Positions 1 to 22,744 of a stretch of DNA of 39,556 nt are shown one piece after another. Where the stretch lies: assembly GCF_000002865.3 (NCBI RefSeq), contig NW_001865092.1:15536-55091 (forward strand). The letters are read 5' to 3'. Below the pieces are notes generated by a model. It made no database searches, had not been told where the DNA came from, and worked only from the letters and a program-made list of their open reading frames with translations. Numbering within the stretch: the stretch's first letter is position 1; each line of letters begins with the position of its first letter. The stretch comes from Monosiga brevicollis MX1. Its lineage: Eukaryota. A program made the position numbers and the translations under genes.

Positions 1-2775
1 TGCTGCAACAGCATCTCCACCACCTTGACACAACCCCTATGGCAGGCCATGTGCAGTGGTGTATCGCCACCCTGTGGGATGATGCATCCGCATGACGAAC
101 AGGTACAGCATCATCATCATCATCATCATCATGTGGTCCAGGTCACCATCAGTGGGGAGGGTGGGGGGAAAGAGGGAGGTACTGTACTGACGTTGGTCTT
201 GGCTTTAGCATCAACACCGTACGCAACAGCATCTCCACCACCTTGTCACGACCCTTATGGCAGGCCTTGTGCAGTGGTGTTTCGCCATCCTGTGGGATGA
301 TGCATCAGCATGACGTACAGGTACAGCATCGTCATCATCATCATCATTATCATCACCACCATCATAGGGGGGGGGGGGAAGAACTGTACTGACGTTGGTC
401 TGGGGTTTAGTATCAATACCGTGCTGCAACAGCATCTCCACCACCTTGACACAACCCCTATGGCAGGCCATGTGCAGTGGTGTATCGCCACCCTGTGGGA
501 TGATGCATCCGCATGACGAACAGGTACAGCATCATCATCATCATCATCATCATGTGGTCCAGGTCACCATCAGTGGGGAGGGTGGGGGGAAGAGGGAGGT
601 ACTGTACTGACGTTGGTCTTAGCTTTAGCATCAACACCGTGCTGCAACAGCATCTCCACCACCTTGACATGACCGTTACTGCAGGCCATGTGCAGTGGTG
701 TCCAGCCACCCTGTGGGATGATGCATCCGCATGACGAACAGGTACAGCATCATCATCATCATCATCATGTGATCCAGGTCACCATCATGGAGGGGTAAAG
801 GGGGGAAGAGGGAGGTACTGTACTGACGTTGGTCTGGGGTTCAGCATCAACACCGTGCTGCAACAGCATCTCCACCACCTTGATATGACCCTCATGGCAG
901 GCCCAGTGCAGTGCTGTATAGCCATCCTGTGGGATGATGCATCAGCATGACGTACAGGTACAGCATCATCATCATCATCATCATCATCATCATCATCATC
1001 ATCATCATCATCATCATCATCATCATCATCATCATCATCATTATCATGTGGTAAAGGTCACCATCAGGGGGGGGGAGGCGTAAAGGGGGGAAGAGGGAGG
1101 TACTGTACTGACGATGATCTTGACTTTAGTATCAGCACCGTGCTGCAACAGCATCTCCACCACCTTGTCATGACCGTGAATGCAGGCCTGGTGCAGTGGT
1201 GTTTCGCCATTCTGTGGGATGATGCATCAGCATGACATACAGGTACATCATCGTCATCATCATCATCATTATCATCACCACCATCATAGGGGGGGGGAAG
1301 AACTGTACTGACGTCGTTCTTGGCTTTAGTATCAACACCGTGCTGCAACAGCATCTCCACCACCTTGACACAACCCCTATGGCAGGCCATGTGCAGTGGT
1401 GTATCGCCACCCTGTCGGATGATGCATCCGCATGACGAACAGGTACAGCATCATCATCATCATCATCATCATGTGGTCAGGTCACCATCAGTGGGGAGGG
1501 TGGGGGGAAGAGGGAGGTACTGTACTGACGTTGGTCTTAGCTTTAGCATCAACACCGTGCTGCAACAGCATCTCCGCCACCTTGACATGACCGTTACTGC
1601 AGGCCATGTGCAGTGGTGTCCAGCCACCCTGTGGGATGATGCATCCGCATGACGAACAGGTACAGCATCATCATCATCATCATCATGTGATCCAGGTGCA
1701 CCATCAGTGGGGAGGGGTAAAGGGGGGAAGAGGGAGGTACTGTACTGACGTTGGTCTGGGGTTTAGTATCAACACCGTGCTGCAACAGCATCTCCACCAC
1801 CTTGATATGACCCTCATGGCAGGCCCAGTGCAGTGCTGTATAGCCATCCTGTGGGATGATGCATCAGCATGACGTACAGGTACAGCATCATCATCNNNNN
1901 NNNNNNNNNNNNNNNNNNNNNNNNNNNNNNNNNNNNNNNNNNNNNNNNNNNNNNNNNNNNNNNNNNNNNNNNNNNNNNNNNNNNNNNNNNNNNNNNNNNN
2001 NNNNNNNNNNNNNNNNNNNNNNNNNNNNNNNNNNNNNNNNNNNNNNNNNNNNNNNNNNNNNNNNNNNNNNNNNNNNNNNNNNNNNNNNNNNNNNNNNNNN
2101 NNNNNNNNNNNNNNNNNNNNNNNNNNNNNNNNNNNNNNNNNNNNNNNNNNNNNNNNNNNNNNNNNNNNNNNNNNNNNNNNNNNNNNNNNNNNNNNNNNNN
2201 NNNNNNNNNNNNNNNNNNNNNNNNNNNNNNNNNNNNNNNNNNNNNNNNNNNNNNNNNNNNNNNNNNNNNNNNNNNNNNNNNNNNNNNNNNNNNNNNNNNN
2301 NNNNNNNNNNNNNNNNNNNNNNNNNNNNNNNNNNNNNNNNNNNNNNNNNNNNNNNNNNNNNNNNNNNNNNNNNNNNNNNNNNNNNNNNNNNNNNNNNNNN
2401 NNNNNNNNNNNNNNNNNNNNNNNNTGTACTGACCGTGTCCTTGGCTTTAGTATCAACACCGTACTGCAACAGCATCTCCACCACCTTGTCATGACCCTTA
2501 AGGCAGGCATTGTGCAGTGGTGTACGGCCATCCTGTGGGATGATGCAAACATGCAGTATATGTCTCATGTTATACCAGAACGTCACCCCATTTGGTGACA
2601 TATTCAAAGTGTTACCCATATCACACAACATCATATCAAACTGCATACGTACCTTATCTTTGTATTGGGCAGCATCTCGAATGCGTTGTTGGTCCCAACT
2701 GGTCAACAGCTGCAGCGCCTCTTGTGGATCTGATGAATCACACGCACTGTACAACTGCTCTCCATCATCACTCAT
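1..2775 (-). CDS. Modular ankyrin-repeat gene 1 (N-cap exon plus at least 10 one-repeat exons; continues past base 1 and spans the gap)
   Basis: Exon 1 is 2653-2775 ([41 protein letters not shown]). 99-bp phase-0 exons bounded by CAG and GTCAGT lie at 2434-2532, 1750-1848, 1530-1628, 1313-1411, 1113-1211, 828-926, 612-710 and 394-492, then 192-289 (98 bp, frameshift) and <1-71. Each reads xGxT(P/A)[28 protein letters not shown]. Confidence 0.92.
965..1040 (+). repeat. (CAT)n microsatellite inside an ankyrin intron
   Basis: Long perfect CAT run. Shorter CAT runs occupy the same position in nearly every repeat intron of the family. Confidence 0.95.
1896..2424. other. Assembly gap (N run) inside the ankyrin exon array
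   Basis: Run of N flanked on both sides by repeat-intron sequence. Confidence 0.99.
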
Positions 2776-20169: not shown

Positions 20170-22744
20170 TCAAAGTCCTACTTGAGCAGCGGACGTTCGA
20201 GCGGCCAGGTCACCAAGGGCTTGTAGGTCTTGGATATCGAACAATCGAGGATCAACGCGCCAGCCGACGCTACAGAGAACAGCAACAGCGCGCCGCCAGC
20301 GTCTGATCTGCTCCGCATGGATCAAGCCTTGGACTGGCGCCACGTTGAAATCCGATGAGAGCAAGACAATGCGAACAATCAGATGGGAATCAGGTGCGCA
20401 CCATTGGAATTCGAAGTTCGGTAGGAGCAAGGGGTACGGGTTACGCTCAACAGCTCTGCAACCACCTATAAAGTGAAACAGTTTCATCGGTCAGCAAGCT
20501 TGCCTCAGCAATGTAACCAAAATAAACAAAAAAAAAAGACCCACATCCAGCTTGATGCGATCCCTGCGAAGGACCAGATCCAAGGGTCGTGCACCCGCCT
20601 GCCACAGAAGGCCATCAGGTATCAATCGCAGGTGCAGCAGAAGAGCGGAAAAGCACGGCATCATGATAAAGAGCTTACGAGATCTCTCGCATTCGGGTCG
20701 GCACCGTGCCGCAAGAGTTGCTGGATACCCTCTCGGCTGGCAGACAAGGCAGTGCAGGTCACATGGAGCGGCGTTTGGCCGTCCTATATTATAATCATGT
20801 TCGGGAACATGAGGAACGAGCTCTTACCAAGGGAGGAGGCAACACAATACATTCAATTTTAGACGGCAAATAGCGCAATTAACGTGATTGGTGATGTTGG
20901 GGTCTACATTGTGACTCAACAAACTTTGTACCGCCTTCATGCTACCACCTTGGCAGGCAGCGTGTAATGATGTCGCTCCATCCTAGCCGCAAAAACAAAT
21001 TCATCAGACAGAGACAGGCATAAGCAACAAACTGGCCTTTTCAACATATGAGGGGGCACGTAAGAAGCTTCTTACACGATTTCTCGCGTTGGCGTCTGCA
21101 CCATGACTTAGAAGGATCGAAGTGATCTCGGCGTGATCATAGTCACAGGCGATGTGAAGTGGTGTGTTTTCACGCTGCCGAGGCATTGGATGGCCAGCAG
21201 CGGCATCGTTTGAGCAAGACGGACACGCACGCAGCCCAAGACAAAGGGTCTGGATGAGCCAGTGGAATCCAGGACATTGCAAGCCCGAGCGAAGAAGGTG
21301 CGGCACAAGGTTCATGGCCAAGTAGAATCACAAACCCAATCCTTGACTTCAACATTGGCGTGGTGCTCCAGAAGTAGCTGTAAGATCTTCACATAGTTGC
21401 CATGGCAGGCTTTGTGCACCGGTGCGCAGCCATTCTTTTTTTTTTTTTTTTTCCAGGCAGGGTGGGGAAAGGGTGAGCGTTGGGTGAGCCTGGGTAAAGC
21501 AGAAGAAACGACTACTCAAAGCCGCTTGAGCGTGCGAGGGAGGCAGGAGCACGATGGCGAGAGATAGAATAGTGCCCGGTTTGAAGTCACGACATCAGAA
21601 GGGGACGCCGGTGTAGATACAGTGGGACAGGGCGGGGTGCAAGGAGCGTGTGCAAAAGGGTGGACGGAAAATGGGAACAGAAGAGGGATAGCGGGAAAGA
21701 AGAAAAGGAGCAAGGGCAGAACGGACGCGCACGGTGGGCAGGGTGTAGAAGAACGAGGGACGGGACAAAGACGACGAGCAGCGGGAGCAGCAGCAGCAGC
21801 CAGAGGGAGGGGGGAAGGGAGGCACTGTACTGACCCTGTCCTGGGCTTTAGCATCAGCGCCGTGCTTCAACAACATGTCCACCACCTTGACATCACCCTT
21901 TTCGCAGGCACAGAGCAGTGGTGTAATGCCATGCTGTGGGATATGCCATCATCATCATCATCATCATCATCATCATCATCATCATTACCATCATGTGGTA
22001 CAGCTATACCATCATAGGGGGGCTAAAGGGGGACGAGGCACTGTACTGACCCTGCCCTTGGCTTTAGCATCAGCACCGTGCTTCAACAACATCTCCACCA
22101 CCTTGCCATCACCGTAAAGGCAGGCATAGTGTAGTGCTGAAAAGCCATTCTGTGGGATGATGCATCAGCGTTACGTACACGTACAGCAGCATCATCATAT
22201 GGTACAGCTGAAGGGGGGTAAAGGGGGAAAGAGGTACTGACCTCGATTTTGACTTTTGCATCAACACCGTGCTTCAACAGCATCTCCACCACCTCGACGC
22301 GATCGCTGCGGCAGGCTTTGTGTAGTGGTGTCCAGCCAGACTGTGGGATCATGCATCAGCAGTCATCACCATCATCAACCGTGTGGTACAGGTGTATACC
22401 ATCGAAGGAGGACAAAAGGGGTTACTGTACTGACGTAGCTCTTGGCTTCAGCATCAACACCGTGCTTCAACAGCGTCTCCACCACCTCGATGTGACCGTT
22501 AAGGCAGGCATAGTGTAGCGGTGAAAAGTCACCCTGTGGGATGATGCATGTCTCATGTTATACCATACTTTCAGAAGGTATATATCACACACCACATCAT
22601 GCCAAACAGTATACGACGTACCTCATTTTTGTATTGGGCAGCATGACGAATACGTTGTTCGTCCCAACTGTTCAACAGCCGCAGCGCCTTGTGTGGATCA
22701 TAGTAATAACACGCATCAAACAGCTGCACTCCATCATCATTCAT
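20170..22744 (-). CDS. Modular ankyrin gene 5 (N-cap, 4 family repeats, 4 divergent repeats, long C-terminal module with an in-frame TGA)
   Basis: N-cap exon 22622-22744. 99-bp exons at 22435-22533, 22242-22340, 22051-22149, 21835-21933, 21336-21434, 21076-21174 and 20884-20982, then 20679-20783 (105 bp). The last exon starts at 20598, has TGA at 20491-20493 and is then open to 20170. Confidence 0.8.

What the first reader, a model, noticed from the sequence alone, without database searches (positions are those of the whole stretch)
1..22744. Exon-shuffled, natural DARPin-like ankyrin repertoire: N-cap exon + n interchangeable 99-bp repeat cassettes + alternative C-terminal modules
Seen: five loci (ATG at 2775, 12336, 16316, 18954 and 22744) share an upstream module and an N-cap exon. 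They carry >=10, 4, 4, ~1 and 4 family cassettes. Each cassette is a phase-0, 33-codon exon in a near-identical intron (GTCAGTACAG...CATCATCCCACAG), so cassettes can be added, removed or swapped without a frameshift. Gene 3 is simply N-cap + 4 repeats + C-cap. Established: this is the layout of engineered DARPins, and one-repeat-per-exon shuffling has been proposed for candidate immune receptors (LRR-ROCO and NB-ARC-TPR genes of the brown alga Ectocarpus). Inference: a combinatorial cytosolic binder family with no signal peptide, possibly for pathogen or virus recognition. I do not know of a description of this family.
Basis: partly seen in the sequence, partly recalled or inferred. Interest (0 to 1): 0.88.

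Follow-up and report, generated by a model that had tools for sequence, protein, structure and literature searches.

The report
Shuffled ankyrin heads on kinase-PARP family
Five neighbouring genes of a choanoflagellate build their ankyrin binding domain from 99-base exons whose predicted binding-face residues change faster than silent sites; relatives elsewhere in the genome join the same head to a kinase and a PARP-type domain, so the family is likely a set of variable intracellular sensors, possibly for pathogens (untested).

Summary
Five loci share a 5' module and a 41-codon first exon, followed by 10 or more, 4, 4, one broken and 4 phase-0 ankyrin exons of 99 nt in homologous introns. Genes 2, 3 and 5 show spliced joints in public contigs. 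Named relatives are all Monosiga brevicollis: 31 gene models on 18 scaffolds. The six positions randomised in DARPins have omega about 8 (p=2e-4). (2) Repeat number changes by duplication within genes, with breakpoints also inside exons; exchange between genes rests on one 71-nt tract, and tree and PHI tests were negative. (3) Gene 4 is a relic; gene 1 has a 98-nt exon and a gap. Likely role: variable cytosolic sensor or substrate-recruiting heads, immune function untested. [quoted passage not shown] No description found in 10 paper searches. This scan noted the same family before on other DNA of this genome (e1-8068253, e1-8068251).

The parts
2653..2775 (-). Gene 1 first exon (N-cap, 41 codons); 5' module extends to about 3270
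1..2532 (-). Gene 1 cassette array: 2434-2532, N gap 1896-2424, 1750-1848, 1530-1628, 1313-1411, 1113-1211, 828-926, 612-710, 394-492, 192-289 (98 nt, frameshifting), 1-71 (cut by window edge); 3' end off window; 1-875 repeats 923-1790 at 94%
12214..12336 (-). Gene 2 first exon (N-cap)
11350..12091 (-). Gene 2 four 99-nt cassettes (11993, 11773, 11558, 11350)
   Evidence: joints 11447>11557 and 11059>11349 in X3 and X5
10442..11060 (-). Gene 2 type-A 3' module: 10956-11060, 10821-10874 (preceded by a GT..AC intron), 10684-10747, 10442-10614; model 304 aa
   Evidence: joint 10614>10684
16316..16438 (+). Gene 3 first coding exon part (N-cap); 5'UTR intron 16137-16285
   Evidence: joint 16136>16286 in X5
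16565..17344 (+). Gene 3 four 99-nt cassettes (16565, 16791, 17017, 17246); second and third differ by 5 nt
   Evidence: joint 17115>17246 in X5
17955..18065 (+). Gene 3 type-B cap exon with stop; homologous to the start of the exon that leads to helical-kinase-PARP in paralogs; model 209 aa
   Evidence: joint 17344>17955 and zero-difference contigs 17955-18191 in X3 and X5
18760..18954 (-). Gene 4: N-cap fused to a partial, internally deleted cassette; likely relic
22622..22744 (-). Gene 5 first coding exon part (N-cap); 5'UTR intron 22817-22947
   Evidence: joints 22816>22948 and 22532>22621 in X3 and X5
21835..22533 (-). Gene 5 four family cassettes (22435, 22242, 22051, 21835)
20884..21434 (-). 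Gene 5 three divergent 99-nt ankyrin exons with unrelated introns (21336-21434, 21076-21174, 20884-20982), absent from gene 2
   Evidence: joints 21174>21336, 20981>21075, 20782>20883
20170..20783 (-). Gene 5 type-A 3' module (20679-20783, 20545-20598, 20402-20465, 20170-20333); model about 400 aa
   Evidence: 83% DNA identity to gene 2 module
25608..26720 (-). Gene 6, outside the finding: older relative with four ankyrin exons in unrelated introns, ending in a type-B cap exon (25608-25721) with a stop; no family N-cap seen

Best explanation
A Monosiga-restricted gene family builds a variable ankyrin head from 99-nt, one-repeat exons and joins it to either a short tail or a helical-kinase-PARP module; the heads are likely intracellular sensors or target-recruiting modules for fast-changing, probably foreign, proteins. 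Shown: exon layout, splicing of genes 2, 3 and 5, repeat-number change by tandem duplication, chimeric cassettes, two 3' modules switched at the last intron, excess amino-acid change on the predicted binding face. Inferred: the DNA mechanism is ordinary germline unequal crossing-over and gene conversion between about 220-bp exon+intron units, with breakpoints in introns and in the conserved second half of the exon; phase 0 keeps the frame. Inferred: in long members, binding of the head would bring a target to, or switch on, the kinase and ADP-ribosyltransferase; the window's head-only members would act as competing binders or adaptors and as a store of cassettes. Gene 3 is likely a shortened kinase-PARP-type member.
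For: Six DARPin-randomised positions (numbering recalled) chosen beforehand: pN 0.52 vs pS 0.15 over the whole cassette; 14 of 20,000 random six-site sets reach that pN; omega 7.9, LRT p=2e-4 on 16 non-redundant of 20 cassettes. 38 different five-residue face combinations in 16 window and 26 paralog repeats, none shared between the two sets. 4-cassette block duplicated in gene 1 at 94%; chimeric cassettes G1_394 and G3_17017; 71-nt identical tract between gene 2 and gene 3 cassettes, 1 of 132 between-gene pairs, mean 10 differences. N-cap in 17 named paralog models; kinase-PARP module in 19 of 19 hits, all M. brevicollis; 12 models carry family cassettes plus kinase. PARP domain above the Pfam cut-off, nearest solved chains PARP15 and tankyrase-2. 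No signal peptide evident: the N-cap is modelled as two helices at the head of the ankyrin stack (paralog P0023). Same evolutionary signature as fungal NLR ankyrin repeats (PMC4986451) and brown-algal receptors (PMC3341825).
Against: No ligand, activity or induction data. Purifying selection on the framework was not shown: core omega 1.5 (p=0.17), helix 2 omega 0.76 (p=0.66). Recombination and a poorly resolved tree can inflate omega. PHI not significant and single-gene clades not rejected. No kinase or PARP sequence was found in the window itself (output partly cut). Gene 4 is broken, gene 1 has a 98-nt exon, gene 2 a GT..AC intron, and many paralog models are fragmentary, which fits birth-and-death with many dead copies. 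The kinase has DFD in place of DFG and all three PARP motifs were found in only 6 models. Polarity of gene 3 (shortened versus ancestral short form) is open, since gene 6 also stops after a type-B cap.
Confidence: 0.55

Rival explanations
1. Stand-alone natural DARPin repertoire: the short head-only proteins are the functional product, acting as antibody-like inhibitors, and the kinase-PARP forms are a side branch.
For: Gene 3 is spliced to its own stop-containing exon in two runs with zero differences; genes 2 and 5 and at least three paralogs (P0001, P0003, P0023) end in the short type-A tail; gene 6 also stops after a type-B cap.
Against: 12 paralog models join the cassettes to a kinase and most of these to PARP; gene 3's cap is 60-65% identical to the cap that continues into that module; a binder without effector explains less than a sensor-effector pair.
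Confidence: 0.2
2. Unstable tandem array in a repeat-rich region under relaxed selection: the units expand by slippage and ectopic recombination, most copies are decaying, and variation at surface residues reflects tolerance, not a changing ligand.
For: Broken gene 4, 98-nt exon, GT..AC intron; neighbouring retrotransposon remnant; framework omega not below 1.
Against: 20 of 20 full cassettes stop-free, 0 of 20,000 simulations match; 7 invariant residues vs null maximum 4; face omega significantly above 1, which tolerance alone does not give; spliced forms present.
Confidence: 0.13
3. Non-immune use: tankyrase-like recruiters or self/non-self (kin, mate, prey) recognition modules that direct phosphorylation and ADP-ribosylation to host or conspecific proteins.
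For: Ankyrin plus PARP is the tankyrase logic; fungal repeats with the same signature include allorecognition genes (PMC4986451 passages; PMC1805685 listing only).
Against: Tankyrases are highly conserved and were not found in M. brevicollis (PMC9688111 passages); a fixed host ligand would not drive omega near 8.
Confidence: 0.12

Closest known systems
Ectocarpus LRR-ROCO and NB-ARC-TPR candidate receptors (PMC3341825, abstract and outline read; PMC11378527, abstract and section 15 read)
   Same: One repeat per exon, variable repeat number, diversifying selection on the ligand face, birth and death of genes, signalling module attached; immune role also only proposed.
   Different: Ankyrin instead of LRR/TPR; phase 0 instead of phase 2; kinase-PARP or short tail instead of ROC-COR or NB-ARC; alternative splicing of repeats shown there, not here.
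Fungal NLRs with highly conserved ankyrin repeats, Podospora (PMC4986451, abstract and passages read)
   Same: Ankyrin repeats of high internal similarity, repeat-number variation, positive selection on the concave face and hairpin.
   Different: No NACHT/NB-ARC domain here; repeats are N-terminal and each is its own exon with an intron; strain polymorphism shown there, untested here.
Tetrahymena 90-bp-exon LRR genes (PMC6564038, abstract and outline read)
   Same: Arrays of equal-length repeat exons with one intron phase, spread by unequal crossing-over in a protist.
   Different: LRR, phase 2, thousands of genes, retrotransposon-associated; here tens of genes, ankyrin, phase 0.
Tankyrase (ANK-SAM-PARP) and Clade 1A ankyrin PARPs (PMC2964712, PMC4245714, PMC9688111, passages read)
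   Same: N-terminal ankyrin repeats and C-terminal PARP domain in the long paralogs; PMC4245714 mentions in one sentence that ankyrin+PARP proteins occur in M. brevicollis.
   Different: 1-5 (here up to 10+) variable repeats, no SAM, WGR or PRD hit, a kinase in between, multigene expansion.
Engineered DARPins (library design recalled; DARPin structures are among top matches)
   Same: N-cap, n 33-residue repeats, C-cap; variable residues at repeat positions 2, 3, 5, 13, 14.
   Different: Natural, intron-split; also variable at 1, 10, 16, 17, nearly fixed at 33; often fused to enzymes; binding not shown.

Membership tests
Ankyrin repeat proteins | 33-residue repeats matching Pfam Ank and an ankyrin fold | tested here: met
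   Cassette 16565 matches PF00023 at 43 bits, cut-off 21; paralog P0023 model pLDDT 77 matches ankyrin/DARPin chains at Z about 20, rmsd 1.7-2.5
Exon-shuffled repeat receptors (Ectocarpus ROCO / NB-ARC-TPR type) | Each repeat is one exon of constant length and phase | tested here: met
   splice joints
Exon-shuffled repeat receptors (Ectocarpus ROCO / NB-ARC-TPR type) | Diversifying selection on the ligand-binding face | tested here: met
   omega 7.9, p=2e-4; caveat recombination and weak tree
Exon-shuffled repeat receptors (Ectocarpus ROCO / NB-ARC-TPR type) | Exchange of repeat exons between loci | tested here: inconclusive
   one 71-nt tract; AU p 0.18-0.39, PHI p 0.19-0.51
Exon-shuffled repeat receptors (Ectocarpus ROCO / NB-ARC-TPR type) | Alternative splicing of repeat exons | tested here: inconclusive
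   skip-like joints in X5 carry other letters at the joint and fit paralogs
ROCO / NLR (STAND) receptors | ROC-COR, NB-ARC or NACHT domain | tested here: not met
   none in Pfam scans of P0001-P0005 or in precomputed domains of 19 long paralogs
Tankyrase | 15-18 ankyrin repeats, SAM, PARP, no kinase | tested here: not met
   few repeats, kinase present, no SAM hit
PARP/ARTD catalytic domain (long paralogs only) | PARP fold motifs with H-Y-E triad | tested here: inconclusive
   PF00644 39.7 bits over cut-off 26.7; H and Y align with PARP15; all three motifs in 6 models, E position assigned from recalled tankyrase motif; activity not testable
Immune receptor | Binds a pathogen molecule or is needed for a defence response | not testable with these tools
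   the differential-expression supplement of PMC8592570 was too large to read
ANK-F-box/PRANC or ASB (ANK-SOCS) adaptors, for the type-A tail | C-terminal F-box/PRANC or SOCS box | tested here: inconclusive
   no Pfam hit on P0001/P0003 tails; atlas rows all under the naming bar; tail poorly modelled

The most novel reading that the evidence does not exclude
The closest unicellular relative of animals carries an anticipatory immune repertoire: DARPin-like ankyrin cassettes are re-assorted within and between about 35 loci, and by splicing, to make new specificities that steer a kinase plus ADP-ribosyltransferase onto viral or bacterial proteins, an NLR-like sensor-effector system without a STAND domain.
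Probability: 0.2. Interest if true: 0.9.

Novelty: new variant of a known kind. Interest (0 to 1): 0.64.

Why it matters
M. brevicollis is a genetically tractable model of pre-animal immunity (PMC8592570), where few receptors are known. A family of 30 or more genes whose ankyrin face is under diversifying selection and which is coupled to kinase and PARP domains gives concrete candidate sensors that can be knocked out and assayed, something the brown-algal exon-shuffled receptors have lacked. It also shows natural selection varying largely the same ankyrin positions that protein engineers randomise.

Tried and rejected
No whole genome was held, so loci were counted from annotated proteins, not DNA; the count is a lower bound and many models are mis-spliced. 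N-cap search of metagenome contigs: 0 of 263 candidate stretches confirmed; viral contigs: 1 of 36, 20 residues at 55%, taken as chance and not examined. No listed run is on record as RNA; X3 and X5 are treated as RNA because they hold GT..AG joints, X1 and X2 as DNA-like. Summed depths were not used to rank expression. Skip-like joints (16657>17955, 70>1312, 927>2655 and others) were rejected as proof of exon skipping because they carry other letters or fit paralogs; 5 and 51 further joints were not shown. No clean gene-1-specific joint was among those shown, and the 98-nt exon could not be confirmed or dismissed. The helical middle region of long paralogs folded poorly (pLDDT 52) and was not searched; atlas gave no usable hit. 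F-box/SOCS reading of the type-A tail: no support. PHI test and single-clade tests negative. Kinase search: 20 of 60 hits were the family; the other 40 were 26-41% identical kinases, none with a precomputed PARP domain; word-based and length-limited, so absence elsewhere is not shown. The M. brevicollis genome paper and kinome paper were not held and may mention the family; supplement zip of PMC8592570 unreadable, its two readable files had no hit.
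Full report
Observation. The first coding exon is 123 nt in genes 1, 2, 3 and 5; the five N-caps share 18 invariant residues of about 41 and about 600 nt of 5' module at 71-81% identity. Twenty full cassettes are exactly 99 nt, AG..GT flanked, phase 0 and stop-free; gene 1 also has a 98-nt cassette, one cut by the window edge and a 529-N gap. 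Introns between cassettes share both ends but run 92-186 nt. Gene 4 is an N-cap fused directly to part of a cassette with a further 12-nt deletion. Random substitution never kept 16 non-redundant cassettes stop-free (0 of 20,000) and gave at most 4 invariant residues against 7 seen.

Organism and family. Searches with the N-cap gave 5 of 5 candidates and 18 representatives; every named strong hit is Monosiga brevicollis, and ten unnamed ENA proteins carry the same N-cap, some reading on into sequence like intron 1. A PARP-region search gave 19 of 19 hits from M. brevicollis. Together, searches give 31 gene models on 18 scaffolds of distinct length: 17 with the N-cap, 12 with family cassettes plus a kinase, most of those plus PARP. 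The full long form is N-cap, ankyrin repeats, cap, proline-rich linker, helical region, kinase, PARP-type domain (P0017, P0029, P0041).

Two 3' modules. Genes 2 and 5 end in type A (a 35-residue ankyrin exon and three short exons, 83% DNA identity), as do P0001, P0003 and P0023. Gene 5 has three extra divergent 99-nt exons before it that gene 2 lacks. Gene 3 ends in type B: its last exon is 60-65% identical to the cap that in P0007, P0029, P0031, P0033, P0041, P0042 and P0043 continues into the kinase-PARP module, but gene 3 stops a few codons later. The last introns of genes 2, 3 and 5 are homologous for their first part and then diverge, which places the module switch in that intron. A sixth, older gene at 25.6-26.7 kb also stops after a type-B cap, so short type-B forms recur and their polarity is open.

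Expression and assembly. Logan contigs of runs X3 and X5 hold GT..AG joints for gene 3 (17344>17955 in both; 17115>17246 and the 5'UTR intron in X5), gene 5 (five joints, four in both runs) and gene 2 (three joints in both); X1 and X2 show none of these. Zero-difference contigs cover gene 3's stop and gene 5's first exon. X1 contigs cross unique parts of genes 3-5 without differences. A marine metagenome (X16) holds a 180-nt piece of a cassette with its intron flanks at 10 differences. Contigs cannot show level, skipping or the full gene 1 array.

Selection. Variation peaks at repeat positions 1, 2, 3, 5, 10, 13, 14 and 16 (entropy 2.2-3.0 bits). With the six positions randomised in DARPin libraries (recalled: 2, 3, 5, 13, 14, 33) fixed beforehand, on 16 of 20 cassettes after dropping 4 near-duplicates, pN is 0.52 against pS 0.15 for the whole cassette (ratio 3.5, bootstrap 2.1-5.7); 14 of 20,000 random site sets do as well. 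A codon model gives omega 7.9 (p=2e-4); core positions give 1.5 (p=0.17) and helix 2 gives 0.76 (p=0.66), so purifying selection on the frame is not shown by this test. Sixteen window and 26 paralog repeats give 38 distinct face combinations, none shared between the sets; the paralog repeats were picked by a consensus pattern, so only their variable positions are informative.

Shuffling. Within genes it is plain: a four-cassette block of gene 1 is duplicated at 94%, gene 3 cassettes 2 and 3 differ by 5 nt, and cassette 394 is a chimera (10 informative sites from one parent, then 4 from another). Between genes the evidence is one tract: gene 2 cassette 11558 and gene 3 cassette 17017 are identical over exon nt 45-99 plus 16 intron nt while differing at 13 of the first 44 (1 of 132 pairs; Poisson-corrected 0.005, region chosen after the fact). 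Mean distance within genes 2 and 5 is about equal to that between genes, and the tree is star-like, but single-gene clades are not rejected and PHI is not significant; short repeat alignments have low power for this (PMC5100051, passages read). Breakpoints inside exons mean unequal crossing-over and conversion between whole units describes it better than clean exon swapping.

Mechanism. Most likely (0.55): a variable cytosolic recognition head selected against changing, probably foreign, ligands; in long members it would recruit a target to, or activate, the kinase and ADP-ribosyltransferase; short members would compete, adapt or store cassettes. Layout, splicing, duplication and face selection are shown; ligand, activity and immune role are inferred from analogy. 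Rivals: stand-alone binders (0.2), relaxed array (0.13), non-immune recognition (0.12).

Comparison and novelty. It works like Ectocarpus ROCO/NB-ARC-TPR genes (PMC3341825, PMC11378527), fungal ankyrin NLRs (PMC4986451) and, in DNA mechanism, Tetrahymena 90-bp LRR exons (PMC6564038), but lacks ROC-COR and STAND domains and is no tankyrase. Ten paper searches found no description of the family; PMC4245714 notes only that ankyrin+PARP proteins occur in M. brevicollis. The genome and kinome papers could not be read, and the expression tables of PMC8592570 were not readable; both may bear on novelty and function. After I had reached this reading, the scan's notes showed the same family on two other pieces of this genome; they agree but are not independent support. 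Verdict: real, a new variant of a known kind, interest 0.64.

Noticed in passing
window 23415-24689 (+): Single-ORF gene with a likely signal or membrane anchor and about seven 50-residue FG-GAP-like repeats (PF13517, E 5e-93), next to gene 5 head to head.
   Followed up: partly
window 3822-5686 (-): Spliced gene (joint 4774>4909) with a Thr-rich stalk and an SH2 domain; the laid runs differ from the window at about ten single bases here at full depth, so the window's letters may be errors or another copy.
   Followed up: partly
window 6496-7890 (-), 5684-6137 and 14811-15254: Retrotransposon remnant with integrase, SH3 and chromo domains, and a 450-bp repeat present twice in opposite orientation at 89%; very high summed depth in X3 and X5.
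   Followed up: partly
window 27400-28420 (+): Another intron-split ankyrin gene with divergent repeats and a C-terminal stretch loosely like the type-A tail.
   Followed up: no
window 10875-10955 (-): Gene 2 intron ends AC where gene 5 has AG; it is 81 nt, in frame and stop-free, so retention or skipping would keep the frame.
   Followed up: partly
window 33696-33770 and 33948-34022 (+): Two tandem tRNA-Trp(CCA) genes.
   Followed up: no
window 31131-32969 (-): Gene with a predicted membrane segment and a weak FG-GAP_2 match (23.1 bits, at cut-off).
   Followed up: no
window 16439-16564 and 2533-2652: Intron 1 of genes 3 and 1 is in frame and stop-free (126 and 120 nt), which misleads gene callers and would allow retention.
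   Followed up: no
window 18060-18700: Sequence after gene 3's stop has other near copies in the laid runs and holds a 52-bp tandem repeat; genes 3 and 4 converge here and both end abruptly.
   Followed up: partly
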